The position numbers and the translations under genes are program-made. Positions 350 through 60,620 of a DNA stretch of 64,000 bases are shown here, piece after piece (position 1 is the first letter of the stretch; each line of letters begins with the position of its first letter). The stretch spans positions 62,001 to 126,000 of the forward strand of contig JAUCBJ010006962.1 of assembly GCA_032718475.1 (NCBI GenBank), read 5' to 3'. The stretch comes from Nemertoderma westbladi. Lineage: Eukaryota; Animalia; Xenacoelomorpha. The notes beneath the pieces are model-generated. The model saw only the letters and a program-made list of their open reading frames with translations. It searched no databases and was not told the origin of the DNA.

Positions 350-2784
350 TTACTAGGGCAAATCTGGTCCTGTAACTAGGACCCCCTTCGTTCTGGGATA
401 AGGACGCCCTTGGTCCTGGATTAAGGACCCATATACTTGGCTGCAGGGGTATATGGTCTGGCCAGGCAGATGGTGATCTACCAATGGCTGGTCAGGAGTA
501 GAGTGTTCTCATGTCCACTCTGAGTACACTTCACTGCGACCTGCACCTGGCAGCAGGGGTACAGGGCATGACCCAGCAGATGAGCTGCACAGCCAATGGT
601 GGGTCATGTGCGCCAGAGTAGATATGGGTGATGGGCCTCATATCTGACTCCACTGCGACACCCACCCTGTGGAATGGCAAACCAGAGTGTGGTATTTGCC
701 CCGATAAAACGGCTGACTCGGCAAAAAAGCACCCCCCAACCCCCACAATGGATTACATTAGTAATGCGGAGGTCCGGCCACTTGAGGCCAGTGGAATGAC
801 CGGACAAAATCGGCCTCACAGGCGTCAGTTATCTCCTGACCGGCTGTCTGTTTCACCCCCTACTGGAGAGAGAGCGGCAAACAATTCTTTGAGTCCCTTT
901 CCTGATGACCTTTCTGGCCCAAACCCTGGGTCACCAGGGAGGCCAGATTGTGAGGGGGATAGGATTTCTGGAGTTAGAGGCTACACTCATGATCCACCCC
1001 GACCAACAAATCCATTGATGAATCTGAGGCAAGTCACTAGACTAGCCTCAGTAAACACCCTAACACTCGGGTCCCCAATGCGAAAAGGTGAGCTGACTGC
1101 CTTGGCAGATATGCTTTCTCTTAGTGCAGTGGGTGTTCAAGAGCACCGAATGCAGACTGGACAGACTGATGAGGTTCTTATTAAGGACATGGGGGCGGTT
1201 GGCGACTCGCCCTCGCGTCAGCGGATGACAGTGGCAATGGTGGAATTGGTCTATTGATGAATCCAACTGCACATGCAGCATTGGACAAAATAGACCAAAT
1301 CTCTAACCGCATCATCCGTTGTCACTTCTCATGTTCTGGAAGGCTGGCTAAGAAGTTTCCTAAGGTGGTTCTGATTGTGTGCTACTCTCCAACTAGTGTT
1401 GCCCCTGTAGAGGAGGTGGAAAATTTCTACCACAATCTACAAGCAGCTACTGATGGAGTGGATCAGCATGCATTCTTAACATTCCTCGGGAGACTTTAAT
1501 GCAAGTCTGCGTCAATCACCTACATCGCCCTGGGTCTATAGCAATAGTGTTAACCGAAATTCCGTCCTTCTTCAGGATTTTATCTCTGGAAATGGATTGT
1601 TTTCGGAAGGAACCCAGTTCAAGAAGCGAACTGGAAAGCTATGGACTCATAGTGGACCCAGTGGTTACAAGTCCCAGATAGACTATATCCTGTTTCGTAG
1701 GAAATACAGGAGCTCTATACAAGACTGTAATGCATTTACACTTCGACCCTTCTCCAGTGATCAACGCCTTATTGTGGCCAAGGTAAGACTTAGTCTGCGT
1801 GCTAGCAGAACAACGAAATCTGCCTTGCCACGGCATTACTGGTCCTTTCTGTTACAACAGCCAAGTGTGAGATCCAGCTTCACACTATAGCTGAGCAACA
1901 GGTATGATGTTCTTGCCTCGCAGATCACTGTGAGAGCTATACTGCCTTCACAGGGGCAGTTAAGTTAGCAGCTGCAGAAACAGTTCCTGTATACCCTCGA
2001 AACAGGAAACGGGCCCCCTGGACTGACAACAAAATTCAGAAGTGCCGAAATGACATCTACAAGGCGCAGAAAGAGTCCCGACTCAAACAGACTACAGCGG
2101 CCTAGAATGCAGTTAAGGCTGCATCGAGGTCCCTGAACAGGCAGTACTCTGTTAATTTACAGTAGGGTTGATGCCATCAATGATGCTGACCACAGCAGGC
2201 AATTATCCCAGGCATGGAGATTGATCAACTTGCTTACTGTTCGAAAAAGCCAACCAACCACCAAGGTTAAGGCTGAATCACCAGCCGATCGCCTCAATGG
2301 TTGGAAGGCCCACTTTGAAAAGCTCCTCAATAATGATAGGGTATTGCCTGATAACTTTATAGAAGTAAAAGTGTCTGAGTCTGTACTCCCAGATATTCCC
2401 ATTGGTGATATCTCCTTTGAGGAAGTGAAGGCTGCTGCAAAGAGCATTAAGACCAATCGTGCCAGTGGAATAATGGTGTCCCCCCTGAGGTCTTTAAAAT
2501 ACCTGAATGTTTAAAGCTCATCTATCCCATCATAGTAGACATGTACCGAACAACAAGAGTCCCACAAGAAATGAAAACAAATAAGTTGGTGCCAGTTCCC
2601 AAGAAGGGCAACCTAACAATCTATGGTTCTTTTCGGGGAATCTCATTGATCTCGATTGCTGCAAAGCTATACAATAGAAATATATTAAATCGCATAAGGG
2701 ATCCAATTGAGAGACTGCTCTGTGGAAATCAGAATGGGTTCCGTAAAGGTCATGGGACCATGGAGCCCATTTTGGCACTTAGAA
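350..2784 (+). mobile_element. Decayed RTE-clade LINE, 5' part (AP endonuclease + N-terminal RT)
   Basis: Frameshifted ORFs carry APE motifs (SVNTLTL, GVQEHR, VCYSPT, GDFNA, QIDYILFR, SSDQRLI) and RT motifs (VPVPKKGNL, RGISLISIAAKLYN, QNGFRKG). The 5' boundary is approximate. Confidence 0.85.
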
Positions 2785-4705
2785 TAAATGGAAGAGACGG
2801 TAACAATACCTGCAATATCCTACTGTAAAGTTTGTGAATCAAATCATAAATCCGACCTTCTCACCAAAACAGTAAACTCCAAGTAAGCGAATATATTGCA
2901 GTATTGATCTCTTATAACCGGTGAGGCAGAAAACAGTCTACGAGCAGACAAACTTCGATAAAACAAAATCCCGCGCAGCGAATCCTAAAATCAGGCTGAC
3001 TCACTGACGGACTAAGAGGCTCGTATACTTTGCCGCGGTGTGATTTATATGGTTGGGCAAAGGGAACGCTAGCTAGGTACAGAGGCAGAGATTTGGAGAT
3101 GTCTAACTAGCGGGCAAAGCACAGTAAGGACGAAAGTTAATTTTATATATTTTGAGGTGTAAATAATTTCTAACGCGCGTGTGTTAATTCTGAACGGTCA
3201 AAAACAGTTTTGCTCCTTCACATATATAATTACTGGGTACGGTGTGCATTTTACGAAATATTCTAATTTTGTAACTTGTAGGTCCAATACTCACGAATGA
3301 TAAGGTTCCTTCCCCTCTTGCGTATTTCCAGGACTCAAATTCAGGCATAGGGTTAATGCTACGCCCAGAATTCGGCAATTTTAGGTACCAGGTCCCTGAT
3401 ACTAAGAAGAGATGTGTTAGTTTACTACTGTAGGCGTACAGTTACTAATAGCTATCCTGGCGTCCTATCTAGAATTTTAGTCACCCAGGTAGTCCGGGTA
3501 ACTTCCTATCAGGGCGTTGGCGGGGACACGGTAGATGTTAGTATCCCTAATAGCCTCAATTTATTTGCGCCTAGCTGTAAACTGCCCTACCGCCTGAACG
3601 GTACAATCCCAATTCAGGTGAAAACACAGCAACCCCCCTAGCCTACAAGTTCTAATGCAATGGACACCGTTGTACTACAAATAGTCGCACACACACCTGT
3701 ACTTAGCAAGAGTTAGGCGTACAGTTTGCTGCACCCTACCAATTTGTATGCTTCGTACCGGTGTGCCTACGTCCTATCTGCTTACTAGTATCTGCCTGCT
3801 CTCTCCCTCCGTAGGAATATGAAGGTCTACTGTGGTTTTCCTGAATCAAGACAGTACATTCCCTAAGATGTAATTTTAGGCTCACAGCGTGTCACTACTT
3901 CTACCCTTTGATCTTTTGGTCTTATACTTAGGTAGCAAGGCGTCGAACGCTGTCTAACCTTTCAGGCGATGGGCGAATAACTCAAGATGGTATTGCGGGT
4001 TGTCTCTTGTCTACATTCCCGTGATGTTCCCGTTCATTGCTGCGGCCCGATCTCTAGCCGGCCATCCTGTCCCTTAGCTGGGTTCACCGTAGTGAATCAT
4101 GGTAAAACAGATAGAAAAGGCAGATTAGCGATAATTCTGACTTTATTACAGAAGATATAATTATAATACAATGTAATCTGAAATAAACTAAGCACGACAG
4201 AATATTGATAAGATAAGATAATCTGAGAAGTATATTATAGTAGGAATGATAATGATAACTAATGAACAAATCGCACCTTTATATACCAAATTTGTGCTGC
4301 AATCAATCGAGATAATTCTCGATTGTTCTATAGGTTCTAACGGGTTTTTAAAGATAGCTATTGGTCCAGCTAATGTATAACTTGCACGACATTGGATACA
4401 ATCTAATAACTGCAGTCTCATTGGTTAATCTAGGTACAAACGAATGCAATTTAATTTGTAGCGGTCAATTTAAATGAGTTGAAATTCTGCACAAAAAATA
4501 ATTCGCACTTACTAGGATTCGAACTCAATACCTACTACACATATAATTTCCAACGCTTTACCGACTGAGCTACTGAACCACTTGACCAATAGGCGTACAA
4601 ATGATAGAACAAATACGAATGAGAACTCAAAGCAATCTTTACAAAGTTAATTCGAATAAAATAAAATTTTGAAAATCCACGGCATTTAGGGAATATAATT
4701 CTATA
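2785..4705 (-). repeat. 3' LTR (1921 bp)
   Basis: Near-identical to 19405-21325; about 10 substitutions counted by eye and no indels. Confidence 0.97.
4493..4579 (-). ncRNA. tRNA-like Pol III cassette in the 3' LTR
   Basis: Minus strand shows an A box/D-arm (TAGCTCAGTCGGTAAAGC), a B box (GAGTTCGAATCC) and a T6 run. The acceptor stem does not pair. Confidence 0.55.
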
Positions 4706-4899
4706 CCGCTCCATGAAAACAGGATATTATCGTGCATAAAATATACGGTTTTCACCAATAATCAATCAAACTATAGAATACTTAGGGCGTACTTACATAT
4801 TTACAAATTAAATTTCAAATAATACTTCCTTTCTACGTAATGATTCGATACAAAAATAATTACAAATTCAAACTTTACGTATTTAAGGCTTTACTAAGT

Positions 4900-5533
4900 A
4901 AGTACAATATAAATCTAAATTAAATTCACCAATATAAATCTATTGCATCTCAATATTGCATAAATTCAAACAATTACAAATACAAATAAATGAAAACAAT
5001 AAGAAAGGCTCGCGAGTCTTCCATCTACTATTGCATCTCAAATATTGCATAAATTCAAGTAATTACAAATACTTTCGTACCTAAATGTAGATTGCATAAG
5101 TTCGGAATAATTACAAATATGAGTCTTTCTAAGCACAAAATTTTCTAACTACAAAACTTTCTAAATACAAAATATAACGCTTTACAAATGAAACTATAAG
5201 AAAGGCCCACGAGTCTTCCATCTACTCTTACTTTCTATTTCACTGTAAATACAAATACTGCTTATAAGATATAAATTGCATAATATTCGGAACAATATAA
5301 ATTGCATAAGTTCGGAATAATATAAATTGCATAAGATCGGAATAATTACAAATATAAAATATAAATTCTTACAAATGTAAGTCTTACTAAATATAAGTTT
5401 TACTAAATATAAGTTCTTATTTCTAAATTTCATAAATTCGGAACAATACAAATTGCATAAGTTCGGAATAAACACAAATATAAATATAAATTCAAATAAA
5501 TCACAAATCACAAGAAAGGCTCACGAGTCTTCC
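4900..5533. repeat. AT-rich tandem repeats in the BEL 3' UTR
   Basis: Recurrent AAATTGCATAAGTTCGGAATAATTACAAAT-like units, plus three copies of the AAGGCTCGCGAGTCTTCC motif. Confidence 0.7.
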
Positions 5534-5725
5534 GTCCACCCTTGCCCTCCCTTATCGCTTAGTTGATCGAGCCCTGCCGCGTCCTCGAAAACTGCGCACA
5601 GGTGACTTTGCTCGCGATATGGGACTAATGGGGCGAGTCACTGGTTTACTTGGGACGTTGAGAGACGGAGCGACTATTTCTTCGCAAATTCGTCTATTTA
5701 GCATCCCAAAACCTCGACCGATTCC

Positions 5726-6507
5726 TCATGACCGATCAGTTGTCACTACAGTTGGTAGAACGTCTGGGAACGCGCGAGAAGCGGACGACGCAGACCCAAG
5801 AGTAGCTTGCGCCCCCTGTTGATCAGCTGGTGTATGTCCCGATCCTCCTACTGGTTCTCTTGGAAGCGATACCGTATCCCGAGTAACTCGAATGGTCGGC
5901 TCAACTCCCTTACGTTCTTCTATATTAATAATTTTCTTTAATTGTTGGCCCACTTTCTGGACCCGTATGATCCTACCCTGTCCGTCCTCCCGAGGGTGAC
6001 GTGCAGACGGCGCAACCGGAGTGGCTGGTATATTTGTCGCCTCTAGGACCTCTTCTTCCTCGAATACGCTCGCTCGTATACGTTTATGGTAAAACGCGGC
6101 TCGGTACGCCCATGCGACGGTTAACCAAGCTCCTTTATTCCGCTTTTCAGTTCGGAAACGATCGAATTCACCATACGTAATGCGATTAACGACTTTCTGA
6201 AAATTCCACGTGTTTTTGTTATCCGGGTGAATCTGTAGTAGATACTCGCGCACCACTCGGAATCCACTGTCGTTGGGGCAAAATATCGACAACCTCGATA
6301 AGTTCGTCATATTGGGGCATAGCGGAGATGTATCCTTCCGACATCATCGTTTGAGGATTTACCGCCCAAAATCCGAGATGCGCCCTCATCGGAAACCGTC
6401 TTCTTTGTGCCGATACATGTTCGTCGGCTAAATCTTCCCACTCATCAAATAACTTCCTCACGAGTTTTACAGATTCGTGTTCATAAGGTATGTCTCTTAG
6501 TTGGCAT
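5726..6507 (-). pseudogene. Frameshifted C-terminal continuation of BEL ORF2
   Basis: Removing 4 nt near 6512 restores a third CCHC knuckle (CTYCNIKGHRASEC) in frame with ORF 6219-6461. A 1-nt shift near the run at ~6275-6278 joins ORF 5726-6310. Confidence 0.65.
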
Positions 6508-9282
6508 TCAGATGATTGCTCGATGTCCTTTTATATTGCAATAAGTACATTGAGCCATAAATCTCCAGCAAGTATAAAAGGTATGAGACCCTTGATCCCC
6601 ACACCATCCACAGATTAGCTGAGTCGTAGAAATGTGCTTTCCACTGCACTTTGTCATATGATGTCCAGCGACGCCACATTTACTACACATCGTATTGGCA
6701 GGGTACCACACTCGTTCGTATATAAGATCTCCAATCGGTCGAGCGCTTCCTCCCACACTATAATCGTAATCATCTGGGTCTATGGGTTGGTAGGTTTCTG
6801 AAGGTTGTATACAAACTATAGCGTCTGTTGCTTCAAGTTGTCGAATCTCCGTCTGAGATTTCTTCGGGAGGTTCCTTTCTATCTCAAGAAGTTCCTCTAA
6901 AGGATCGTCAGCGATCGTAGTAGTTACTTCGAAATCATCACCAAGGTGACCGATAGGCGCGCGCGTCTGCCGTGATTCATCCGTAATCTCAACGATACGT
7001 TCTCCTTCATAGGGTAACAATGTAAACATAGATGGTCTTTCGATAAGAGATCCCGCACAGCGAAGATACACGTCTCGAAATATACTAAATCCTGCTCGAG
7101 TAAAGGCATTACACTGAGCGTCGGAGTTGTAGAAGGGTTCAAGGAATCGTCTAAACACGTCGGTACGAATTCTCCCTTCCATGTAGAACGTATGATCTTC
7201 TCCGAGACAAAGTGGATGTCTTTTGAGAGTCCGAGACACAATGTCGGCGATTAGGCAAACATTCACTGACGACTCTATTGCTAAATAATATTGTAAGACC
7301 GCTCTTGGAGGTGACGTAATAGCCCAATACACGCATCCTCTCCATTTAAGCTGTGATTCAAACTCACTCATATCTGGAGTATCACCTTCTCCATAAGTTT
7401 CAATATACTTGTTTCTATTACTTTCCTTATAATCCCAATTGAATAACAGGTAGGAAATGTATCCAGTTCCAGTCTTCTGAGTATTATACTCACGAAAATA
7501 TCCCTGTTCTATAGACCACAAAATAAGAGGTCGAGTGTCGACGTAAGGTGTCGGTAGTCGGTCATCGCTGTCCGTCATGCCGGCGAAGTCGCTAATTAAG
7601 TCCTCCCTTACTCCTGATCCAATCTTTACAACAGTTTTATCTAAAATCATGTTTCTTACCATCTTCGGTAGCATTCTAGCGTCGATATTACAAGCTTGGT
7701 CCATCTTCTTTACTATGTCAGTGATAAGATGGTGTCGCTTTGTATTCGCTGGAGGTATCGGCATTCGTTTGTCGCTCCTCTGTCTACTGAAAACGTGCAG
7801 GACTCCGTCCGCCGCTCTAATTTGTATAGTCTTAGAAGTCAAACTCTGCTGATGACTGCCGCCCTCGTTGTCGTAAAACATGTAACCATTTTCCTGAAAC
7901 GATCTAAACGTCCTATTCCATTCATCCAGCAATTCTTCCGAAGGTTGCCAAATCTTCTCTATGTCCTTATCATCTTCGAAACGAATAACCTTACCTCGCC
8001 AATCTGCGGCAATATCTGTATCCGACTCGAAGGTTCCGGTTCCAATCCATAAACGAATCGTCTTGGTTAAATATCCTTTCAAATTACTCGGAGCTATATC
8101 GGCACCAGCTCTATCCAGTTCCTTGAAGTCTTGGATATGAGGTGGAACGTTGTACACGACCTTTTGAGTAATATGTCTACGTAAATCATATATCTTACTC
8201 ATATCGCTGAAAACAACTGCAGGAAGAAACTCCAAGTTCGAAATGATTTCTGGATGATCCACGATGGGTATTTCGTACGTCGTATCCTGTCGGACTGGTA
8301 TACTAATAGGAAAATTGAGTGTCGTACTCAATGGTTTCGTAGTCGAAGTACTATACGGTTGCATTTCTCTTGTCCTCTCCGGGGATGCAATCTGTAGTCT
8401 CTGAATAACGTTTTGAGCAAAGTTTATGCTCTCGAAAACTTCCGGTGTCATCTCCTTAGCTGGAGTTTGATCGTGTGACGTCCAATGGTAAGGTAGGCTC
8501 GCGAGTCTTCCGCCCCATTCTTCCATCTCACCTTTCTCGAAAGCCTTGTAGGCTCTGTATAGGCTAAGAGCTTCTTTCTTTTCGCGGGTTGACTGATTTG
8601 CCTCGTCCAGCGTAAGTTCAAATACATCGGGTTCAACAACCTTAGGTGGGTAGACGACAATTTCTCCCGCCTTTGGTCCGGTCATAGCAAATGAATGATA
8701 TAGATTCGATAAAGGATACCCTCCTTCCTGGTAGCGTAGTTGTTGATGGTTCGAACACCTCGCCAATATCGGTTCGGGATTTTCCTTATTCAAACGCATC
8801 GGAATCGCATTTCGTTGTTCGCGCATACAAGAACCGCATTGATAATAAAGTTTATAAACTGAAAATGCTTCCTTGGTTTCTCTATCGTCCCCTCGAGTTC
8901 GTCTGTAAAGATGCATTCCATCAAATTCATCTCTTACCGCGGGCATAGGTTCGTGCGCCTTTAGGTATTGCATGGTATGATACAAACGACTAATTTCAGT
9001 ATCGGGGTCTTCGCTAATATCTCCCGTATCACACAAAGCGTCGTACGGGTAAAGTTCGTTGAAGGTTTGGCGCAAACTTTCGATTCTTTCGTTTAATGCG
9101 TTTTGCCTTCTCTTTAATACATTTGAGTCATATTTAATTCTCGCGAGTTTCGCTGTACTTTCCGATAATTCTTTTATACCGAATATAGTATAATCCTTGG
9201 CTCCAAATCTTTCGAATGGCGCTGCTGCCTCCTCTTGGATATCATATCCCCATCTCGGCTCTCCTTGTATCCCTTTTTCCAT
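6508..9282 (-). CDS. BEL accessory ORF2: putative DEDDy (WRN/Mut-7/EXD-like) 3'-5' exonuclease with CCHC zinc knuckles
   Basis: 924-aa ORF with ExoI-like FYDNEG, TIQI, LPKMVRNMILDKTVVKIGSGVREDL (ExoII), YVDT and ExoIII-like QYYLAIES. C-terminal knuckles are CSKCGVAGHHMTKC and CGWCGDQGSHTFYTC. The N-terminal part has CGSC...CSNH. Confidence 0.7.
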   Translation of the reverse strand: MEKGIQGEPRWGYDIQEEAAAPFERFGAKDYTIFGIKELSESTAKLARIKYDSNVLKRRQNALNERIESLRQTFNELYPYDALCDTGDISEDPDTEISRLYHTMQYLKAHEPMPAVRDEFDGMHLYRRTRGDDRETKEAFSVYKLYYQCGSCMREQRNAIPMRLNKENPEPILARCSNHQQLRYQEGGYPLSNLYHSFAMTGPKAGEIVVYPPKVVEPDVFELTLDEANQSTREKKEALSLYRAYKAFEKGEMEEWGGRLASLPYHWTSHDQTPAKEMTPEVFESINFAQNVIQRLQIASPERTREMQPYSTSTTKPLSTTLNFPISIPVRQDTTYEIPIVDHPEIISNLEFLPAVVFSDMSKIYDLRRHITQKVVYNVPPHIQDFKELDRAGADIAPSNLKGYLTKTIRLWIGTGTFESDTDIAADWRGKVIRFEDDKDIEKIWQPSEELLDEWNRTFRSFQENGYMFYDNEGGSHQQSLTSKTIQIRAADGVLHVFSRQRSDKRMPIPPANTKRHHLITDIVKKMDQACNIDARMLPKMVRNMILDKTVVKIGSGVREDLISDFAGMTDSDDRLPTPYVDTRPLILWSIEQGYFREYNTQKTGTGYISYLLFNWDYKESNRNKYIETYGEGDTPDMSEFESQLKWRGCVYWAITSPPRAVLQYYLAIESSVNVCLIADIVSRTLKRHPLCLGEDHTFYMEGRIRTDVFRRFLEPFYNSDAQCNAFTRAGFSIFRDVYLRCAGSLIERPSMFTLLPYEGERIVEITDESRQTRAPIGHLGDDFEVTTTIADDPLEELLEIERNLPKKSQTEIRQLEATDAIVCIQPSETYQPIDPDDYDYSVGGSARPIGDLIYERVWYPANTMCSKCGVAGHHMTKCSGKHISTTQLICGWCGDQGSHTFYTCWRFMAQCTYCNIKGHRAII

Positions 9283-9943
9283 AATTAGGGGTGTAGTTAC
9301 ATAATCATTACTACTAGAGGGAATACAACAGAGTTTGTAGTTAGTTGTGAGGAGACGTGAGAGTTTCGTCTGCCCTTTGGGCTCGACAACGCTCTAACCT
9401 CCTACCCATAGCCTAAGATCTAGGGTTTCTTTAATGACACGCTGCTTCTTATCTAAAATTTTTTGCCGAAATAAAAACGAATTTGGGCTAACTGGCTGTG
9501 AGTCTAAAATACTCACTTTTTGATCCCAAACTATTATCAGAAAATAAGCAGTCAAGAATTAGTAATAAATATAGGGGAGTCTATTTATTGACTTAACTTA
9601 TTGAAACAAGACCGTGTAAAATTTAATTAAAAATTTTAAGAAAGGCTCGCAAGTCTTCCTCTCTTGTTTCTCTAATTTTAAGTTCCACCCGACTGTACCC
9701 TGAAATCTATTCACTGGAGAAAATTTTAAAAATTTTTCAAATCCAAATGGATTGTCTAAAATTTCGAAAATGTCTCAATATTGTGAGTTCCAAGTAGAAT
9801 TCCATTTCTTATACCTACAAATCCCGCTCCTATGTGACACATAAGGGTACCACCCTCAATGTTCACATATAAAGACAATGGAATTCTACCGCTGTCTTTA
9901 CTACGGTGTACAGGTACGTGGAAATCTATTTGTAAACTCCTAA

Positions 9944-10906
9944 TTATTTACTAGTATTAGGTGGAGATTTGTAGTCTCCAGACTCGTTACGAGTCTCTTC
10001 AAGAAGTACGAGACGTTGAGTCGGTCTGTCTACTATACGACCGTCAATTGTCCGTACCGTCACAGTTCTTGTCACTCCATCCATAGATGGATGTGTGGCT
10101 AAAATTACACCTGTTATCCAGAAGCGTCTTTTTAGATTCACTTCCGCTAACAGCACGTGATCTCCCGGCTTTAATGCGCGGGTGTTATTGTACCATGTTG
10201 TTCTGGCAGAAATAGAGGGCAAATAATGGTTTTGCCATATTTCCCAGAATTTGTTAGCTAGTAGTTGCGTGATTTTCCACGCTTTTCTACCGTAGCTGTC
10301 GCTTTCTATTGGAATAGAAATAGGTGTCAATGTGGTCGGTGCCTGCATAAGCAGGTGTGCCGGTGTCAAAGCAAACTGAGATTGTTTGTCATCGGGTACT
10401 AATACTATTGGTCTAGTATTTAGTATTGCCTCGATTTCAACAAACAGTGTTGTCAGTTGGTCGTCTGTCAATATGTGGTTTACTGGAATGACTTTTGCCA
10501 TTGCCGTCTTTATAGATCTAATCAATCTCTCCCAGACTCCGCCTCTCCAAGGACTATCTGGAGGATTGAACTTCCAAACAATCTTGTGAGGTTGCAGTTC
10601 GTTCGAGATTTGATCATGATCTAATTTCTTAAAGGCTCTAGCAATCTCATTTCGAGCACCAACAAAGTTTGTCCCTTGGTCTGAGTACAAGCATTTTACT
10701 AGTCCGCGTCTAGCGATAAATCGCCGCAGTGCTAGTATAAACGCGTTGGTAGAAAGATCCATCACACGTTCAATATGAACTGCCCTACTGGACATACATG
10801 TGAAAATCAGTCCCCAGCGTTTTACTAGTATACGTCCACGTTTCGTATGTATGGGACCAAAGCAATCAATTCCAGTCTCTGTAAAAGGTGGTCTGAATGC
10901 TTGAAG
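9944..10906 (-). CDS. BEL integrase core (in frame with gag-pol after one premature TGA)
   Basis: TGIDCFGP, RAVHIE, YSDQGTNFVGA, GGVWERLIRSIK, EAILNTRP. In frame with ORF 10907-18595. Confidence 0.93.
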   Translation of the reverse strand, partial: LQAFRPPFTETGIDCFGPIHTKRGRILVKRWGLIFTCMSSRAVHIERVMDLSTNAFILALRRFIARRGLVKCLYSDQGTNFVGARNEIARAFKKLDHDQISNELQPHKIVWKFNPPDSPWRGGVWERLIRSIKTAMAKVIPVNHILTDDQLTTLFVEIEAILNTRPIVLVPDDKQSQFALTPAHLLMQAPTTLTPISIPIESDSYGRKAWKITQLLANKFWEIWQNHYLPSISARTTWYNNTRALKPGDHVLLAEVNLKRRFWITGVILATHPSMDGVTRTVTVRTIDGRIVDRPTQRLVLLEETRNESGDYKSPPNTSK

Positions 10907-13900
10907 TCATGCTTGTGGAAGTTCACTCATTTCTTGGGTACCTATTCTAGAATGTACCTTTTTACAAATAATACACGTACGTGTCACTGAACTTAACGCT
11001 TTACTGGGTCTAATTAATACAAATCTTGTACGTAAGTAGGAAAGACAGTGGTGTCTTCCAGCGTGTTTCAGATGTAAATGTGCGTCCAGTATCATTGCAC
11101 GTTGTAGTTCGTGGTGTTGCGGTATTATTATTGGGTATCTAAAGTTTGTGTTAAAGTCAATGTTTTGAAGCCGAGATTTATGACAAATTAAGCCATTATA
11201 AATAATCGGACTCCAACTCAGTATTGGTGACGACTTGATTGGTTGACCTTGATTTATGGATGTGAATTCGCGCGCGAAATATCGCAGTTGGTAATGGCGA
11301 ATTAATTTAATCTCACACCTGTCAATCTCAGCCAAGGTAAGTCGACGTGTAAAGTCACGTTTGCCTTTTACGTATTGTACAAAACGTACAATCCACGCTA
11401 ACTTTCGGCAAGCGTTTGACCAAGAGTCTGTTAAGTTTACAATCCGGTCGACGTGAGTATTTGTGACGTCATCAGGTAAGTCAATGGAGATTTTGGAAGG
11501 TTTTGAATTACTAGAAGGGCCCACGGGTCCGCCGGTAAGTATTCCCTTGTTGACTGTTGATCCGTCCGGGTCTACAAGTAATTTGTCCTTCTTCGTCTTC
11601 TTACCTTGATTGTCGGTACTTTGTAAGTCGATCGTTAATGGTGGTTTGAACTCTATGGGGTCAGCAGTTTTCGGTAAACTTATTTTTCTGCCGACATTAA
11701 TCCCAGGTCTCACCATAGGTTGCAAGTTCGGTATGTCTCTTGAGCGCAAAGTAACACCTGTATTTACATTAGCGTAGGTACTACCCACATCTGTAATACA
11801 TGAGGTTTCACCGTGCTTAGGGTTGCTCAAGTGTGTCAAAATTGGTAGTTTGTCAATACAAGGCCGCTCCAATAGGGAAACTGCGGCTTTACTGTTAGTC
11901 AATACATTACTAATGTCCGGTAGAACATTTTGTGATGTTTCTGACAAAATGTCTAGTCGACTGTCTAGTAATGTGTCTGGCGATACGTCTGGTAACGTAT
12001 CTGGTTGTTTGTCAATAGAAGGCCGCTCCAATAGGGAAACTGCGGCTTTACTATTTGTCAATATGTTACTAGTGTCTGGTAGAACATTTTGTGACATGTC
12101 TGGCAAAATGTCTGGTTGACCGTCTAGTAACGTGTCTGGTTGACCGTCTGGCGATATGTCTGGTGTAGAAAGGCTCGCAAGTCTTCCTCTCTTGACCTTT
12201 GAAGTTATATCCTTCCATTTCGCCTTCGGTTTCTTCTTGAGTTTCGCCGCCGTCGTCCTTTTCTTTGCCTTCCCCTTCTTTGGTTTCTTGATTTCAGCGT
12301 CCTTAGGGATGGTGTTAGACTTGTTGTCGTATAACGGTGGCCAATCTTGCGTCGATTTCTGCAAGAATTGGGGTCCGTGTTGCCAAAATTCTTTGTTCTC
12401 CGGTTTACAGAATTCCTCAGGCATCATTCCTCGCGACGCAATATCAGCTGGGTTTTGTGGTCCGGGACAATGTCGCCAATCCTCTTTTATTGAACGGTCT
12501 AGAATTTCTGCGCGACGGTTAGCTACGAATGTCTTGAATTCAAGTGTGTCGTTGTTTATGTAAAATAAAACCAACGTCGCGTCAGTCCAATAAAATATCT
12601 GTAAACTTGACTGTAGTTCTGTCTGTATAAGGTTCACGATGGTGGTTGACAGGGTTGCGGCTTGTAGCTCAGCTCGTGGTGTCGTCATATACTTAGTAGG
12701 CATTGTTTTTGCCTTAGAAGTAATGAGCGAAACATCGAATTCTTCTGAGTCTACTTGTCTGCGCAAGTACGCTGCCACACCAAAACCGTTGTCACTGGCG
12801 TCAGAAAAACAGTGTAGTTCCAAGTTGTCAGGAAATGTACTTTGTAATGGAAAGTAGACTCTGGGTATGGAATAATCCTCTAGCGAAGATAATTCCGCCT
12901 CCCAGGTCTTCCATAAGTCCACTTGGTCTGATGAGATCGGCTCGTCCCATGTTAGTCCATCCTTCCAAATACTGCGCATATAAATGCGGGCTTGCCGTAT
13001 TACTGGACTGATGAATCCTAACGGATCGAACAATCGGCTCAATTTTGACAAGCATGATCTCTTTGTCAGTGTGTTTTCTTGACTGTCCAGTCTCACTTTC
13101 ACTCGAAAGTTGTCCGTGTTTGGGTCCCAAAAGAGCCCCAACACCTTGGTCGTCGGTAGTGGTTCGAACTCTAGGTCTATGTCACCACCTCCACGCTCAG
13201 TCGTTCCGAATGAGTCTACTAATTCGGCACTGTTTGAGGCGAATTTGGTGAGGTTAAAACCTCCGCCCGCTAAGCAGTCCCGCAATTGATGTGCTACTGT
13301 TGTAGCACGTTCTACTGTGTCGCAACTCTGTAATCCGTCGTCGACGTAGAAGTCACGTTCCACAATCCTAATTATCTCTGGGTCATATAGGTGTTTCTGA
13401 TCTCTAGCGGCTTGTTTTAGGGCGTACATCGTGCAGTTTGGGCTGTCTCTGGCACCGAAAACGCGAACTTGCATTTGGTAAGTCGCCGGTGGTAGACTTA
13501 AGTCTCCTTCCGGATACCAGAGGAACCGCAAACTGTCTCTGTCTCGCTCTAACGCTCTCACTTGGTGAAACATCGCTTCAACGTCGCAAGTAAAAGCTAC
13601 TTGACGCTGACGGAAGCGCATAATCACCCCCATAAGATAATTATTCATGTTTGGTCCATCCATCAACTCACTATTGAGGGACATTCCCTCAAACAGAGCC
13701 GCACAGTCGTTGACTACGCGTACTTTATCTGGTTTGTCGGGGTGTCTCACATAGTGATGTGGCAGGTAGTATGTCTGGTTAGTCACTATCTCTGGGTTAG
13801 TCATTCGGATAGCGTATCCCTTTGTCAAATACGTCTCCATCTGATTGTTGTACTGTAGATGGGCTTTCTCGTCCTTTAATAGACGTTGCCGTATTGAGTG

Positions 13901-16900
13901 TAGACGTCTTAAAGCTAGTGGGTAGTTATTTATAAGTTTAGGACTTTGGCTACGCCATAACATCCCCACCTCATAATGTCCGTCTTTCGTCTGGCGGATA
14001 GTATCTTCCATGATCTTCAGAGATTGTTTCTCCTGTTCCGACATACAAGGTTCGTTGCTACCAGGTTCAGCTGTATCTTGTTCTAACCACCTGATAGTCT
14101 TCTCCGTTAATTCTTTGTCTAGTGCAGCTTGTTCCAATTGATGATTTCTCAACGCGTCATCATCGATATCGACGGGCGTTGTTGAGGTTGTTGGGGTAGG
14201 TAGACTCGCAAGCCTTCCGGCGTTATCATCTGTCGTCGATGGAATCTCTGACTGACTCGTCTTCTCCCCAAGTTCTAAACTCACCTGGTGGGTTAGCTGC
14301 TCCTTGTGACTTATCATACTAGTCACACGTCTGTCATGTTTTGTCGACTGTAGTGTAGTATGGTTCACGTCGTGTGAGAAGGAATGAATTGAATTTGTAG
14401 TTAATAAACTACATGTACTTTGTACATCGTCTTCCTCGTCACTTACGTCTAGTGTGCGCACAGGCGCTCGAGTATACCACCCTATCGGCGTTCTGCAGGC
14501 GTATGCGTTTCCCGCTACGACTGCCGATGGTCTGGTTTCCCACACTTGGTGTAGGTTGAATTGGTCCGTCCCGATCAGCATGGCTACCGATCTATAATTG
14601 ACAGGACATTCGGGTACACCAAGGTGTCTGAAATACTTACGGTCCTCCAAGGATTGTTCTGGGACCGGACCTAGTAGGTTACTAAAGTCTTTGGTGGCCG
14701 CAAAGGTCAAATCCTTGAAGGGTAACAAAGACCTCTCCCTCTCGCTGTGTTGCGATTTCGGAAGAAGAGAGTCTAAGTTTAACTTGACTCGTGTCACTGG
14801 TATTGCACGCTGTCCGTGCATACTACTTACAGTATAACTGACGCGCTTACCTTGTCGGAGATCCGTCACTACATCAGCTATCTTTTCATCCACGTAACTG
14901 TGAGATGAGGCTGAATCTAGAATCGCGTAGATTCTCTTACTCCCCTTTGTGCCAGTAATCTTAATCGGAATTACACTGAATCCCTTCAGTTGGTCAGTAG
15001 TCAGAAGCGCGATCGATGGCTGTTCATCTCCATCCGAATATACGTCGTCGTCTTCTGACTCTTCGTCCGACGATCCGGATTGTTCTGAGAAGCAATCCTC
15101 AATATGGGTCACGAAGGTTGGAGTCGTTTTCGATTCTCGTTTTTTGTAGGCCGCATTACATCTCGCTGCTGCTTCCGGGTGTTCCCTGGCGAAGCGTTTT
15201 GTCGGCGTGTGGCTGTCTGTGTGGAGCAGACCGTCGTGGTTGCGTCCACAGGATGGACAAGTGTCGGTATTTGGGCAATCTTTACGGACGTGTCCGTGTC
15301 GCGTACACCGCCAACAAGAGTCCAATGGCCGTATCTGCAGCCGTCGTTCTTCCGAGTTTAACTCGCGAAACTGTCGACAACCTCTCAACTTGTGACCGCT
15401 ATACCGCTTGCCTAAATGCTCGCAGTATTGGCAGCCGCTGAAGTCGGTACTGAGTTGTTGTCTCGTCTGTTTTGTCCCAATGGGCGCAGATACCCTACTA
15501 CCGTCCGAGAATTGTCGTGATTCCGTCGATGTGGCGTAAGTGGCCGTCTTGGTGGATGTTGTCTGGGGTTTTTGTCGGTTGGAGGATGGCAATGTGATTC
15601 CTTCTGCCACGATGTGCTGGTCAGTGTAGTTAGATCGAGTTTCTACTACTGCCTCCCTGGATATTAAAAGGTACACATCCTCTAGTTTTAAGAATCCACC
15701 CCGCTCTTCTCGCTGGTATTCGATCTTTCTCCACTCCCGGCGAAGTCGATGGTGGAGTCGCCCTATGATCTTTAATAGGACTGTAGGGGTATTCCCGTAG
15801 TCAAGTTGTCCAATGGATCTTAAAGTAGTGATAGCGTTCTTTATCTCGTCGGCCAGTTTTAATAAGTCGACGGGTTTAGTGATAGCCCCTCCCTTACAGA
15901 GTTCCTCTATTACTGACCTGGCCATACTGACTGTACCTTCGTATATCGAAGTTAAACGATCGTACGCTAGTTCGAAGGCGTCCGGTACACCAACGAAGGT
16001 CTCTGCCAAACGTTTAGGTTCTCCTGACAACGTTTGAAGCAGGTAATTAAACTTCTCCCGTGATGTAAAGGCGCACACGGCGATCTGAGATTCGATATAG
16101 TCTACGAATGTGTGCCAGTGTTTTGAACTACCGGAAAACTTCGGTGGTTGTTGTACCGGCAATCCTTGCCTGGCTGCGAATTTCGCTATCTCCTCGGCAA
16201 CGTTCAGAGTTTCGCGTCCTTGGTTGGTAACCTGGTTGATGTTCTCCCTTCTTGGCGCTTTTCCCTGATACGATGTATGTTTTGAAGGTACCGGTCTTTG
16301 TGGTTCCTTCGGGTGTCTATTGTGTTCGAATTCGGAATTTCTCGAACTGTCGGTGTAACCTTCCTCCAGACGTTCCTCGATCTGAGCCAACTTGTTAACA
16401 ACTGGTCGCAGGATGTCGGCGAACTGTTGTGTACTGATTGCGTCCGTTGGTTGTAACGCCTTCGGTGTTGGTGTATTCTGTGGAGGATTGTCTACAAAGA
16501 AGTTGTCTGAACGCTCGCGTTTATATTCATCGGCCGCCCCTGTTCTAAATACCTCGCGTTTCGGGTAATCCGATTCGCTCGAAGTACTACTATCATCTGG
16601 ATATGGTGGTCGACGTGCTCGCGTACGTTGCGTCGTACGAATTCTAACGTTTCGTTTTGGAACATCGTCCACTGATCTCCGTTGTTCGGTAGGCTCGCAA
16701 GTCTTCCTCGAAGTCGTAGATTGCGATGTACACTGGTTGAACGGTCGCGTATCCACTGTTCTCCGTTGTTCGGTAGGCTCGCAAGTCTTCCTCGAAGTCG
16801 TAGATTGCGATGTACACTGGTTGAACGGTGGTCGGATGACAGCGTTTGAATCAACTGGCCTTGTAGGTCGAAACGTCATTGGGTATTCGTAGTGCGTAAC

Positions 16901-18595: not shown

Positions 18596-18678
18596 TTCGG
18601 TAGTTGTAAGTCAAGTAAAGTGAGTGTCAAAGTATCGAGTTTACCGTATTTATATCTAAACGGTACTAATTACAGTCA

Positions 18679-18803
18679 TATAAAATTAGCCTACCGGCCG
18701 ATTTTATAGCAGATGGATAAAATTAGCCTAAACGGCCAATTTTACAGCAAATAAATGTCACGGAATAAGTATATAATAAAATTAGCCTAGCGGCCAATTT
18801 TAT
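18679..18803 (-). promoter_or_regulatory. Three repeated stem-loops in the BEL 5' leader
   Basis: Sense-strand AAAATTGGCC-loop-GGCTAATTTT occurs three times, ~80-200 nt upstream of the gag ATG. Confidence 0.55.
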
Positions 18804-19404
18804 AACAAATAAATCGGATAACGATATGCGTTATCAAAAGGTAAATTAAATACAATAATACGGACTAATTCAGCAATGAACAAAGAAATCATACGGAATG
18901 CATAAATACTTGAGACAGTGGAACCCACAATAATTTTAACTAATACGGTAATGCCTAACTTATTTATGCAACTTTTCGAACTCACCCACTCCAATAATTC
19001 TCCAGAAAAACAGATTCCCAGATACAAACCGGACGTGAACCTTTCCGTTTTCAGCGTTGCGGACGAAACGCGATTTTCCCAACCAAAGTTGTTGGGTTAT
19101 CTATCTCCCAAACTTGCTAAACACGGTCTTGCTCCCGTTACAGTCTAGAAATGAGTTCTGAATCCTGAAAAACAAAAGAGTTAGGTTTTACTTTACGAAA
19201 ATTTTGTACCGGTACAATATGGTATTTAAACCCTTTTAAACACCGGTATTCAATTCCAAAAATATTTTATACGCGGTTCAAATCAAATTTTATTTCAAAA
19301 AATTAGCACTTAGCTAATCAAATACAAACTTTTACCTCAAAATACAAAAATTTTCAAATAACTTTAGTCCTACCGAACCGTAGTTCAGTAAGACATATTC
19401 CTAC

Positions 19405-21325
19405 TAAATGGAAGAGACGGTAACAATACCTGCAATATCCTACTGTAAAGTTTGTGAATCAAATCATAAATCCGACCTTCTCACCAAAACAGTAAACTCC
19501 AAGTAAGCGAATATATTGCAGTATTGATCTCTTATAACCGGTGAGGCAGAAAACAGTCTACGAGCAGACAAACTTCGATAAAACAAAATCCCGCGCAGCG
19601 AATCCTAAAATCAGGCTGACTCACTGACGGACTAAGAGGCTCGTATACTTTGCCGCGGTGTGATTTATATGGTTGGGCAAAGGGAACGCTAGCTAGGTAC
19701 AGAGGCAGAGATTTGGAGATGTCTAACTAGCGGGCAAAGCACAGTAAGGACAAAAGTTAATTTTATATATTTTGAGGTGTAAATAATTTCTAACGCGCGT
19801 GTGTTAATTCTGAACGGTCAAAAACAGTTTTGCTCCTTCACATATATAATTACTGGGTACGGTGTGCATTTTACGAAATATTCTAATTTTGTAACTTGTA
19901 GGTCCAATACTCACGAATGATAAGGTTCCTTCCCCTCTTGCGTATTTCCAGGACTCAAATTCAGGCATAGGGTTAATGCTACGCCCAGAATTCGGCAATT
20001 TTAGGTACCAGGTCCCTGATACTAAGAAGAGATGTGTTAGTTTACTACTGTAGGCGTACAGTTACTAATAGATATCCTGGCGTCCTATCTAGAATTTTAG
20101 TCACCCAGGTAGTCCGGGTAACTTCCTATCAGGGCGTTGGCGGGGACACGGTAGATGTTAGTATCCCTAATAGCCTCAAATTATTTGCGCCTAGCTGTAA
20201 ACTGCCCTACCGCCTGAACGGTACAATCCCAATTCAGGTGAAAACACAGCAACCCCCCTAGCCTACAAGTTCTAATGCAATGGACACCGTTGTACTACAA
20301 ATAGTCGCACACACACCTGTACTTAGCAGGAGTTAGGCGTACAGTTTGCTGCACCCTACCAATTTGTATGCTTCGTACCGGTGTGCCTACGTCCTATCTG
20401 CGTACTACTATCTGCCTGCTCTCTCCCTCCGTAGGAATATGAAGGTCTACTGTGGTTTTCCTGAATCAAGACAGTACAGTCCCTAAGATGTAATTTTAGG
20501 CTCACAGCGTGTCACTACTTCTACCCTTTGATCTTTTGGTCTTATACTTAGGTAGCAAGGCGTCGAACGCTGTCTAACCTTTCAGGCGATGGGCGAATAA
20601 CTCAAGATGGTATTGCGGGTTGTCTCTTGTCTACATTCCCGTGATGTTCCCGTTCATTGCTGCGGCCCGATCTCTAGCCGGCCATCCTGTCCCTTAGCTG
20701 GGTTCACCGTAGTGAATCATGGTAAAACAGATAGAAAAGGCAGATTAGCGATAATTCTGACTTTATTACAGAAGATATAATTATAATACAATGTAATCTG
20801 AAATAAACTAAGCACGACAGAATATTGATAAGATAAGATAATCTGAGAAGTATATTATAGTAGGAATGATAATGATAACTAATGAACAAATCGCACCTTT
20901 ATATACCAAATTTGTGCTGCAATCAATCGAGATAATTCTCGATTGTTCTATAGGTTCTAACGGGTTTTTAAAGATAGCTATTGGCCCAGCTAATGTATAA
21001 CTTGCACGACATTGGATACAATCTAATAACTGCAGTCTCATTGGTTAATCTAGGTACAAACGAATGCAATTTAATTTGTAGCGGTCAATTTAAATGAGTT
21101 GAAATTCTGCACAAAAAATAATGCGCACTTACTAGGATTCGAACTCAATACCTACTACACATATAATTTCCAACGCTCTACCGACTGAGCTACTGAACCA
21201 CTTGACCAATAGGCGTACAAATGATAGAACAAATACGAATGAGAACTCAAAGCAATCTTTACAAAGTTAATTCGAATAAAATAAAATTTTGAAAATCCAC
21301 GGCATTTAGGGAATATAATTCTATA
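19405..21325 (-). repeat. 5' LTR (1921 bp)
   Basis: Direct repeat of 2785-4705, followed on + by the TSD TAGAA. Confidence 0.97.
21113..21199 (-). ncRNA. tRNA-like Pol III cassette in the 5' LTR
   Basis: Same as 4493-4579, but the D-stem is perfect (GCTC...GAGC). Confidence 0.55.
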
Positions 21326-21330
21326 TAGAA

Positions 21331-31925: not shown

Positions 31926-32485
31926 TGATTCTCTTCAGTGATAGACTCTGTTTCATTCACGTCTTTCATGTGAAAATCGAAACTTCCTTCTGCGCTCAGA
32001 TAACTGCCACTTCCCTCGCTACGCTCGATGCTGTCGCTGTACCATTCATACGGACCTGGCGGAGAATCCGTCGCTTTCCTTCTGTAATAAGGAAGTACCA
32101 GATCCGAGTTGGTACAGGCCACGGATTCCTTGTCTGAATCATCCTCACAAACATCGACAATAATATCCTCAAATATGGAGTGATCCATAGAGAGTGATCC
32201 ATCTTCTTCTTCGTCTTCAACTATAACATCCATCGATTCGTCGTCGATACCAACTATCTTATCTTCAGGAATAACTTCCCGCCCAGACACTCTATTAGTC
32301 TTTTCCTTCATAAAATCTGGGGGTTCTATTGGCTTGGCTCTGAGTTCGTTAAAACCTAAAGACGTCAGCATCTCGAATTGTTCCTTCAAGGCCAAAGATC
32401 GACGCCTATCAAAGATGCTCATTAACTCCCATTCGTTGTCGGTGAAATAGTGACGGATGGAATCGAACTCGGAATCCATTGACAT
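31924..32485 (-). CDS. PRDM9: PRDM9-like gene, exon 1: ancestral KRAB domain + acidic linker
   Basis: FDSIRHYFTDNEWELMSIFDRRRSLALKEQFEMLTSLGF...PPDFM resembles the PRDM9/SSX KRAB. A GT donor at 31923 gives a predicted 800-aa spliced product. Confidence 0.8.
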
Positions 32486-32654
32486 CTCGAAGAGTTAATA
32501 TATGATATAAAGTGATTTAAAAATACAATATACTATTACAATACAGTTAGAAATTTTGTTATTCTAGAAGTAGAACATAAACTGCAAAACGAATATAATG
32601 TATTCAGTGATACAGTAGGTACTGCAGTAGCTTGCTAAATTAAGCTATTCTATA

Positions 32655-60470: not shown

Positions 60471-60620
60471 AATTCCGGAAGTTTTAAGTGACAGGGGAGA
60501 TGTGTCACTACGTGTTACTACATTAGCAAAGAGTGCAGGAGGACATATGGCGGAAATTACACACGCCACAAATCGTGTTGAATTAAAATTGTTAGAAAGT
60601 GGATCCTATATCGAAGTAGA

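What the first reader, a model, noticed from the sequence alone, without database searches (positions are those of the whole stretch)
5726..9282. BEL/Pao retrotransposon carries a DEDDy 3'-5' exonuclease + zinc-knuckle gene in the env position
Seen: a 924-aa ORF (~1180 aa if two frameshifts are repaired) lies between pol and the 3' LTR, inside the TSD-bounded element. It has no obvious signal peptide or TM segment. It contains FYDNEG, LPKMVRNMILDKTVVKIGSGVREDL and QYYLAIES, then CCHC knuckles. Established: this motif series characterises WRN/Mut-7(Nibbler)/EXD DEDDy exonucleases, some of which act in small-RNA pathways, and the usual BEL extra ORF is env-like. Inference: this is a captured nuclease, possibly a small-RNA counter-defence or a cDNA/RNA end-processing factor. 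ExoIII appears as YxxxE rather than YxxxD. I do not know of a described BEL lineage with this cargo but cannot search for one.
Basis: partly seen in the sequence, partly recalled or inferred. Interest (0 to 1): 0.85.

Follow-up and report, generated by a model that had tools for sequence, protein, structure and literature searches.

The report
Exonuclease-like gene in giant BEL retrotransposon
A young, unusually large BEL/Pao jumping gene carries, where some relatives keep an envelope gene, an extra gene that is conserved among its sister copies, is predicted to fold like an RNA-trimming enzyme joined to zinc knuckles, and likely works on the element's own RNA; such cargo is described for other retrotransposon groups but was not found for this one in the papers searched.

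Summary
An 18.5-kb BEL/Pao element (2785-21325, minus strand; 1921-nt LTRs, 10 mismatches; 5-bp target duplication) carries a 924-aa ORF (9282-6508) after integrase, with the stated motifs, CCHC knuckles and no transmembrane segment. Sister copies show purifying selection on the exonuclease-like region (28 synonymous, 12 non-synonymous of 40 listed changes; 29% synonymous expected). The DEDDy call is likely (about 0.85) but remote: Pfam, PDB and large protein searches gave no exonuclease hit. Support comes from ESM Atlas (24 of 30 hits PF01612 clusters), a targeted profile test (P about 0.001-0.01, ExoII only) and a partly circular AlphaFold model. ExoI and ExoII acids are in register; ExoIII (YxxxE) is favoured but unresolved. 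Activity, substrate and expression are untested. DEDDy third ORFs are already known in bdelloid LTR elements, so this is a new variant: BEL/Pao host, larger multidomain protein. The element also lacks a tRNA primer site and has an 11-nt site complementary to its own LTR (Tf1-like self-priming signature), plus a 17-nt motif repeated ten times. Best guess: an accessory nuclease processing the element's own nucleic acids (0.4); RNA-binding adaptor and small-RNA counter-defence are close rivals.

The parts
2785..4705 (-). 3' LTR, 1921 nt
   Evidence: 99.5% identical to 19405-21325, 10 mismatches, no gaps
19405..21325 (-). 5' LTR, 1921 nt; element termini read TA..TA
2780..2784 (.). 5-bp target-site duplication, left copy (right copy 21326-21330), inside an older LINE reverse-transcriptase gene
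   Evidence: host frame continues across the insertion
19394..19404 (-). 11-nt primer-binding position directly after the 5' LTR; no tRNA-type TGG start; complementary to the element's own LTR
   Evidence: 11 of 14,689 internal 11-mers (this one included) have a complement in the LTR
20431..20441 (-). LTR stretch complementary to the primer-binding position; candidate transcript start and self-primer (copy in 3' LTR at 3811-3821)
   Evidence: start site inferred, not measured
10907..18595 (-). gag-pol: DUF1759, triple Cys-His box, protease, RT (YVDD), RNase H (DAS), integrase zinc finger; ends at an in-frame stop
9944..10906 (-). integrase core and C-terminal DUF5641, behind the stop
   Evidence: Pfam PF18701 E 1.1e-21
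6508..9282 (-). extra ORF, 924 aa, in the env position
   Evidence: purifying selection among sister copies
8746..8838 (-). C-x2-C-x23-C-x2-H motif (residues 149-179), possible zinc site, in an N-terminal part with no known relative
   Evidence: pattern match; no Atlas hit for residues 1-420
7183..7914 (-). DEDDy-like 3'-5' exonuclease domain (residues 457-700) with an insertion at about 502-536; D471 (7870-7872), E473 (7864-7866), D561 (7600-7602); ExoIII candidate Y666/E670 (7273-7287), alternative Y630/D634 (7381-7395)
6520..6687 (-). two complete CCHC knuckles (866-879, 891-905) and a third cut by the first break
   Evidence: weak phmmer hit to a Gag-like knuckle array, E 8.6e-4
6219..6530 (-). 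open stretch after the first break (near 6513), 103 codons, other frame
   Evidence: indel among sister copies
5726..6343 (-). open stretch after the second break (near 6273), 205 codons, third frame
   Evidence: indel among sister copies
5006..18507 (-). ten copies of a 17-nt motif (5006, 5203, 5517, 8495, 9643, 12171, 14199, 16691, 16775, 18491), nine in one orientation, all inside the element, one inside the extra ORF
   Evidence: 10 matches at up to 2 mismatches, 0 in 100 shuffles

Best explanation
This BEL/Pao retrotransposon carries, after integrase, a third gene that selection keeps intact among its copies, whose product is predicted to join a DEDDy 3'-5' exonuclease fold to CCHC zinc knuckles and likely trims the 3' ends of the element's own RNA or cDNA during replication. 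Shown: position, size, motifs, knuckles, lack of membrane segments, purifying selection. Predicted: the fold, with ExoI and ExoII acids in register. Inferred: translation from a spliced subgenomic RNA (candidate acceptors at 9714, 9496, 9413, 9311), RNA binding by the knuckles as in trypanosome RNase D, catalytic activity with Glu as the fourth acid, and action in cis on the element's own nucleic acids. One concrete substrate would be the self-primer: the element has no tRNA site, and a 5' fragment of its transcript annealed to the primer-binding position would need a clean 3' end.
For: Selection: 28 of 40 listed changes in 7150-8050 are synonymous against 0.293 expected (p 1.2e-7, crude omega 0.18); pol end 7 of 9 (omega 0.11); no indel listed in 7150-8050; the D471 and D561 codons vary only synonymously. 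Fold: ESM Atlas residues 420-760 score 0.92-0.93, 24 of 30 hits PF01612-bearing clusters, residues 1-420 no hit. WRN-like profiles hit residues 538-563 with 3 and 0 of 2000, and 1 and 2 of 2000, shuffles scoring as high; ordered-block score z 3.9, 0 of 300 and 1 of 300 shuffles. AlphaFold with homologues cut before ExoIII put the three strands on 467-474, 483-489 and 495-501, against the alignment's own register for the last two; top Foldseek matches EXD2 and NrnC, E about 1e-4; VIA-align best Z 8.8, rmsd 3.2, 145 aligned, the list being DEDD/DnaQ-type nucleases and polymerases with that domain, many aligned through the model's last helix. Precedents: DEDDy ORF3 with intact acids in bdelloid LTR elements (PMC5408684); a C-terminal zinc-finger domain on a guide-RNA-trimming RNase D (PMC7797062 abstract and section titles). 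Self-priming signature.
Against: No exonuclease hit in Pfam, PDB sequences, the 5.8-billion set or 1.84 billion representatives. hhalign probabilities were 1.5-2.8%, and the broader profile that included RNase D scored weaker (about 1% of shuffles as high). The Atlas tool says shuffled proteins reach 0.9 in 4-10 of 100 cases, and shared features (154-166) lie under its 170 mark. The single-sequence fold failed (pLDDT 30); the guided model is partly circular, has mean pLDDT 57 and about 40 over ExoIII, and Z near 8 is at the edge of what the tool calls common. ExoIII carries Glu, or sits elsewhere. Nothing tests substrate or expression. Tf1 self-primes without such a gene (recalled), and sister copies with about 2 kb of the ORF deleted exist as DNA.
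Confidence: 0.4

Rival explanations
1. The protein keeps the DEDD fold but works mainly as an RNA-binding adaptor, like Egalitarian or EXD1, or like CERV of Cer1 in role: it binds the element's genomic RNA, possibly at the ten 17-nt motifs, and moves it out of the nucleus or to sites of particle assembly.
For: ExoIII is non-canonical or unresolved. The protein is large, with knuckles and a possible second zinc site. A 17-nt motif occurs ten times, only inside the element and mostly in one orientation. Egalitarian and EXD1 are among the fold matches. CERV shows that a spliced accessory protein can be needed for genomic RNA export (PMC10309623 abstract). PMC5408684 notes that EXD1 and Maelstrom are inactive DEDD derivatives that keep RNA binding.
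Against: D471, E473 and D561 are retained, and none of the 40 listed changes alters them or E670. No link between protein and motif was tested; the motif copies do not share one strong predicted fold.
Confidence: 0.27
2. The protein is a counter-defence factor that degrades or over-trims host piRNA or siRNA precursors, or titrates small-RNA machinery, so that the element escapes silencing.
For: Close fold relatives act in small-RNA pathways (Nibbler, EXD1). The family is young (0.5% LTR divergence) and has many sister copies in four runs. Zinc-finger plus DEDD architecture trims small guide RNAs in trypanosomes.
Against: No small-RNA data here. Mature piRNAs carry a 2'-O-methyl end that blocks trimming (established knowledge, recalled). 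In bdelloids DEDDy ORFs showed no clear link to copy number (PMC5408684).
Confidence: 0.22
3. The middle region is not a DEDD exonuclease; the motif matches are chance, and the ORF is a selected accessory protein of another fold.
For: All untargeted sequence searches were blank; statistical support is confined to about 25-80 residues around ExoII; the structure model was guided by a DEDD alignment.
Against: The Atlas result needed no prior guess. With the N-terminus anchored, MAFFT aligns ExoI, both following strands, ExoII and two later blocks in order. AlphaFold corrected the strand register on its own.
Confidence: 0.09
4. The ORF is a neutral passenger recently picked up from the host or another element.
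For: Copies with breaks and internal deletions exist; the ORF outside the domain is less constrained (9 of 16 synonymous, p 0.06).
Against: Strong synonymous excess in the domain; no host-like relative found; the element's own 17-nt motif is embedded in the ORF.
Confidence: 0.02

Closest known systems
DEDDy ORF3 of bdelloid LTR retrotransposons Juno and Vesta, shared with Athena/Terminon elements (PMC5408684; abstract to discussion read)
   Same: Separate ORF after pol in the env position, DEDDy-type domain with retained acids, one Asp changed to Glu, no TM segment, function untested, same functional guesses.
   Different: Host element here is BEL/Pao; the four bdelloid clades named are Juno, Vesta, TelKA and Mag. 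Here the protein is 924 aa or more with CCHC knuckles and a long unknown N-terminus, the Glu is at ExoIII (DEDE) rather than DEED, and homology is too remote for standard searches. Kinship to the bdelloid ORFs was not tested: their sequences were not at hand.
Belpaoviridae / BEL-Pao elements (ICTV profile PMC8742986, whole text; Sinbad paper PMC554778, passages)
   Same: PR-RT-RH-IN order, triple Cys-His box, Pao peptidase, DUF1759 and DUF5641 domains, LTRs, optional third gene.
   Different: 18.5 kb and 1.9-kb LTRs against the stated 4.2-10 kb and 0.2-1.2 kb; third gene not env-like; no tRNA-Arg/Gly primer site; TA..TA ends.
WRN exonuclease, EXD2, Mut-7/Nibbler, RNase D, NrnC (PF01612 DEDDy group)
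   Same: Order and spacing of ExoI, two strands, ExoII helix and later blocks; predicted fold.
   Different: About 35-residue insertion before ExoII, a further insertion before ExoIII, Glu for the last Asp; below the Pfam cut-off. The closest subfamily cannot be named from these data.
Trypanosoma brucei RNase D (PMC7797062; abstract and section list)
   Same: DEDDy domain followed by a zinc-finger domain that aids RNA binding and cleavage.
   Different: Cellular mitochondrial enzyme acting on guide RNAs; an architectural analogy, no kinship shown.
Tf1/Tj1/sushi self-priming (PMC4600332 and PMC6317226, passages)
   Same: Primer-binding position complementary to a stretch of the element's own 5' LTR.
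   Different: Described there for Ty3/gypsy chromoviruses and some plant copia lineages, not BEL/Pao; here only a sequence signature in one copy.
Dada DNA transposons with a DEDDy domain (PMC3706591, passages)
   Same: Mobile element carrying a DEDDy exonuclease proposed to process 3' ends.
   Different: DNA transposon; the domain is inserted inside the transposase.

Membership tests
BEL/Pao (Belpaoviridae) | LTR-flanked gag-pol with protease, RT, RNase H, integrase in that order | tested here: met
   motifs at 14923, 13351, 12808, 11080 on the minus strand; LTRs
BEL/Pao (Belpaoviridae) | Triple Cys-His box and Pao-type domains | tested here: met
   two boxes by pattern, the third read in the translation; PF05380 E 1.3e-41, PF03564 E 6.3e-11, PF18701 E 1.1e-21; definition
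BEL/Pao (Belpaoviridae) | RT phylogeny inside the family | not tested
   no tree built; assignment rests on domains
BEL/Pao (Belpaoviridae) | Primer-binding site for tRNA-Arg or tRNA-Gly (described trait) | tested here: not met
   no TGG start after the 5' LTR; 11 nt complementary to the LTR instead; host tRNA set not available, so a tRNA-fragment primer is not excluded
BEL/Pao (Belpaoviridae) | Size 4.2-10 kb, LTR 0.2-1.2 kb (described range) | tested here: not met
   18,541 nt, LTR 1921 nt; a range of known members rather than a defining rule
DEDDy exonuclease (PF01612 group) | ExoI DxE on the first core strand | tested here: met
   D471/E473 align with the family's DxE when the N-terminus is anchored and lie on strand 467-474, pLDDT about 72; unanchored alignments missed it
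DEDDy exonuclease (PF01612 group) | ExoII Asp after the KxG strand | tested here: met
   the one block found by every method; pLDDT 74-87
DEDDy exonuclease (PF01612 group) | ExoIII YxxxD | tested here: inconclusive
   YxxxE at 666-670 fits the model's last helices and the end-to-end range against RNase D (RNase D positions) but pLDDT is about 40; aligners chose YxxxD at 630-634 or nothing
DEDDy exonuclease (PF01612 group) | Score above the Pfam cut-off | tested here: not met
   no PF01612 match at E up to 1 or 10
DEDDy exonuclease (PF01612 group) | RNase H-like DEDD fold | tested here: inconclusive
   guided model matches the fold, unguided model failed; Atlas features agree
DEDDy exonuclease (PF01612 group) | Metal-dependent 3'-5' nuclease activity | not testable with these tools
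   needs a bench assay
env / viral fusion glycoprotein | Signal peptide, TM anchor, furin site, glycosylation | tested here: not met
   maximum hydropathy 1.38, no RX[KR]R, 2 sequons; downstream pieces under 0.7
Tf1-type self-priming elements | Primer-binding site complementary to the 5' end of the transcript | tested here: inconclusive
   complement found and predicted to pair (0.85-1.0) in a 1156-nt leader fold, but the transcript start is assumed; no RNA data

The most novel reading that the evidence does not exclude
A lineage of giant BEL/Pao retrotransposons has dropped tRNA priming and carries its own DEDDy-knuckle nuclease, which matures the self-made RNA primer by trimming it back to the primer-binding duplex, with the repeated 17-nt motif as its loading site: a replication step done by an element-encoded exonuclease, not described for any LTR retroelement in the papers read.
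Probability: 0.12. Interest if true: 0.8.

Novelty: new variant of a known kind. Interest (0 to 1): 0.52.

Why it matters
If the fold call holds, exonuclease cargo in the env position is not a rotifer oddity but recurs in a separate LTR superfamily, in a young multi-copy family where selection on the gene can be measured, which the bdelloid study did not show for its DEDDy ORFs. That makes the open question from 2017 (end-processing of the element's own RNA, or interference with small-RNA silencing) testable with one soluble domain. The same element also extends the size range of BEL/Pao and shows a tRNA-free priming signature.

Tried and rejected
No whole genome was held, so no copy census or codon-model dN/dS was possible. 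Blank searches for relatives of the ORF: Pfam, PDB sequences, word-indexed protein set near and shorter lengths (11, 30; longer lengths not searched), 1.84 billion representatives (one weak knuckle hit, 29), plasmids and phages, metagenome and viral contigs, exact look-up. Single-sequence AlphaFold failed and was not used for fold search. Integrase-baited scans found 0 viral loci and 1 metagenome BEL element with only about 740 nt after pol and no long ORF there. No RNA holder listed; run X5 is only guessed to be RNA, so expression and splicing were not assessed. Rfam gave 0 matches over the element at E up to 1; no tRNA gene in the window. A fragment-wise alignment misaligned and was dropped. 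Unanchored alignments put ExoI and ExoIII in other registers. Atlas gave no usable hit for residues 1-420. Contig depth was not used to rank genes or count copies. Env reading rejected on hydropathy. Literature: ten searches listed no paper on a DEDD gene in BEL/Pao or on BEL/Pao self-priming; the phrase 'bel pao' matched nothing in the rows, so those two did not restrict to BEL/Pao; only the listed rows were seen; Repbase, Dfam and most subscription journals are not covered; no supplements were read.
Full report
The element. A self-comparison of the window gives two direct repeats of 1921 nt, 2785-4705 and 19405-21325, with 10 mismatches and no gap, 0.5% divergence. A 5-bp duplication flanks them, and the reading frame of an older LINE reverse transcriptase stops at the left edge and resumes at the right, which fixes the element at 18,541 nt on the minus strand with TA..TA ends. 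Inside, one frame of 2567 codons ends at an in-frame stop at 10907-10909 and 320 more codons carry the rest of integrase. [quoted passage not shown] No tree was built. The ICTV profile (PMC8742986, whole text) gives 4.2-10 kb, LTRs of 0.2-1.2 kb, a tRNA-Arg or -Gly primer site and an optional env-like gene; this element departs from all four.

The ORF. ATG 9282 to stop 6508 gives 924 aa. There is no hydrophobic segment (maximum 1.38), no furin-type site and two sequons, so it is not an envelope protein. Two open stretches follow in other frames; the pieces total about 1184 codons.

Sister copies. Five of nine listed runs hold the stretch or part of it, none on record as RNA. Laying contigs on 4400-11400 listed 40 of 235 substitution places and 12 of 16 indel places. 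Two listed indels fall at the two breaks, ten in non-coding parts, and none between 6514 and 9287. The pol stop is not shared by the contigs covering it in any of the four runs. On 7150-8050, 40 of 94 places were listed and no indel. Classing each change singly: 28 synonymous and 12 non-synonymous, against a neutral synonymous share of 0.293 for the same mutation spectrum (p 1.2e-7, crude omega 0.18); rest of the ORF 9 of 16 (p 0.06, omega 0.41); end of pol 7 of 9 (omega 0.11). From I dropped six places already, eight outside the 924-aa ORF and pol, and the stop. These are best-supported subsets and single-site counts, not a codon model. The D471 and D561 codons vary only at the third base, and no listed change touches E473, D634 or E670. 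The gene is therefore under selection in the family. Two joints skipping about 2 kb of it show that deleted copies also exist.

Is it a DEDDy exonuclease? Untargeted sequence searches say nothing: Pfam, PDB sequences (9, 35), 5.8 billion proteins (11, 30) and 1.84 billion representatives, where the one hit is to the knuckles of a Gag-like protein (29, 31). ESM Atlas features for residues 420-760 gave 30 hits at up to 0.93, 24 of them clusters bearing PF01612 (the row shown has it on 50% of members) and 6 unnamed; the tool warns that shuffled proteins reach 0.9 in 4-10 of 100 cases. Residues 1-420 gave no hit. I then built WRN-like profiles from Bacteroidota proteins (the seed profile finds WRN at E 1e-27, then EXD2 and Mut-7). 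They hit the same 25 residues around ExoII: 3 of 2000 full and 0 of 2000 local shuffles scored as high, 1 and 2 of 2000 with a more diverse WRN-like set, and about 20 of 2000 when RNase D and Pol I domains were added. hhalign probabilities stayed under 3%. An ordered six-block score gave z 3.9 but chose the expected place only for ExoII and the two blocks after it. With sequences trimmed to start 14 residues before ExoI, MAFFT put D471 on the family's first Asp in all 60 settings and D561 at the ExoII Asp, and in some settings the two following strands on 483-501; it never put ExoIII on Y666, choosing YGEGD (630-634) or a gap. Single-sequence AlphaFold failed (pLDDT 30). A second run used 26 family cores cut before ExoIII, so it is partly circular. 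It reached pLDDT 57, 70-87 over ExoI and ExoII and about 40 over the C-terminal part, and placed strands two and three on 483-489 and 495-501 although the alignment had them on the insertion. Foldseek ranked EXD2 and NrnC first (E about 1e-4, TM 0.3-0.4); the viral library gave exonucleases and polymerases, none at E under 0.001, and no glycoprotein among the named rows. VIA-align gave Z 8.8 (rmsd 3.2, 145 aligned) at best. Against E. coli RNase D the range 1-238 maps on 14-181; counting back without gaps puts its last catalytic Asp (155) at about residue 668, near E670 and far from D634. I put the fold at about 0.85 and E670 as the fourth acid at about 0.6.

A second feature. The bases after the 5' LTR do not begin with TGG. 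The first 11 are the exact complement of 20441-20431 in the LTR; 11 of 14,689 internal 11-mers, this one included, have such a complement. If transcription starts there, a fold of the 1156-nt leader pairs the first ten bases with the site at 0.85-1.0. This is the signature described for Tf1, Tj1, sushi, Tcn1 and TAR elements (passages of PMC4600332 and PMC6317226). The start site is assumed and a tRNA-fragment primer is not excluded. I found this before looking at earlier AI notes, several of which report the same in other BEL/Pao elements; they are unchecked leads, and if right they imply that self-priming does not need this gene. A 17-nt motif occurs ten times in the window, all inside the element, against none in 100 shuffles; Rfam has no match in the element.

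Mechanism. The best reading is an accessory nuclease, likely made from a spliced RNA (candidate acceptors; untested), that binds RNA through its knuckles and trims 3' ends of the element's own RNA or cDNA (0.4). Retained acids under selection argue for catalysis; the trypanosome RNase D shows that such an architecture can trim short RNAs (abstract); the self-primer is one possible substrate. An RNA-binding adaptor role (0.27) fits the odd ExoIII, the repeated motif and the CERV precedent (abstract). Small-RNA counter-defence (0.22) fits the fold's relatives but has no direct support. A non-DEDD fold (0.09) and a neutral passenger (0.02) remain.

What is known. PMC5408684 (parts 1-3 of 5 read, abstract through discussion) reports DEDDy ORF3s in the bdelloid Juno and Vesta clades and in Terminons, with DEDD changed to DEED, activity unshown, and both end-processing and silencing roles discussed. 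Later papers repeat this (passages of PMC6431247 and PMC6338049); Dada DNA transposons carry a DEDDy domain too. Extra ORFs reported for BEL/Pao in the passages read are env-like; 'exonuclease' does not occur in those two papers' main text. Ten literature searches listed no DEDD gene in BEL/Pao, with the limits given under Tried and rejected. Unchecked AI notes mention Rrp6-like and DEDDh cargo in other LTR elements, mostly gypsy, which suggests the theme recurs.

Verdict. Real, selected, probably a remote DEDDy domain with knuckles in a giant BEL/Pao element: a new variant of a known kind. Interest 0.52; it would rise to about 0.8 if the nuclease were shown to mature the element's own primer.

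Noticed in passing
window 19394-19404 with 20431-20441: No tRNA-type primer site; the first 11 nt after the 5' LTR are complementary to an LTR stretch that sits on an initiator-like sequence (fits the recalled YYANWYY; 5 of 6 with the Drosophila consensus quoted). Pairing is predicted to extend over the U5 end, and a 12-bp hairpin follows the site.
   Followed up: partly
window 5006-18507: A 17-nt motif with a self-complementary core occurs ten times, only inside the element, in both untranslated regions and within gag-pol and the extra ORF, read in different frames; possible packaging, export or protein-binding signal.
   Followed up: partly
window 2785 and 21325: Element ends are TA..TA instead of TG..CA; boundaries are fixed by the target duplication and the host frame. 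The purine tract before the 3' LTR is short and weak.
   Followed up: no
window 3560-3565 and 20180: One of the ten LTR differences falls in an AATAAA that is intact in the 3' LTR only.
   Followed up: no
window 6998-9143: Sister-copy contigs show two joints that skip about 2 kb of the extra ORF, so deletion derivatives exist as DNA.
   Followed up: no
window 11843-12160 and 16668-16829: Tandem duplications inside gag-pol (159 nt at 84%, 78 nt at 99%) that keep the frame; pol has a long low-complexity insertion between RNase H and integrase.
   Followed up: no
window 622-2784 and 21326-about 21800: Decayed LINE with endonuclease-like and reverse-transcriptase pieces, split by the insertion; a second LINE-like RT fragment follows at about 21850-22940 (identities read by eye).
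   Followed up: no
window 27365-29227 and 31916-32494, minus strand: PRDM9-like host gene pieces: SET-like region, C2H2 finger array and a KRAB-like exon, read by eye.
   Followed up: no
window 39928-43836, minus strand: Apparently intact DIRS-type element: gag-like ORF, RT/RNase H ORF and tyrosine recombinase ORF in overlapping frames, read by eye.
   Followed up: no
window 45183-46298 and 60582-63612: A tandem repeat of about 81 nt, and the start of another gag-like region near the window end.
   Followed up: no
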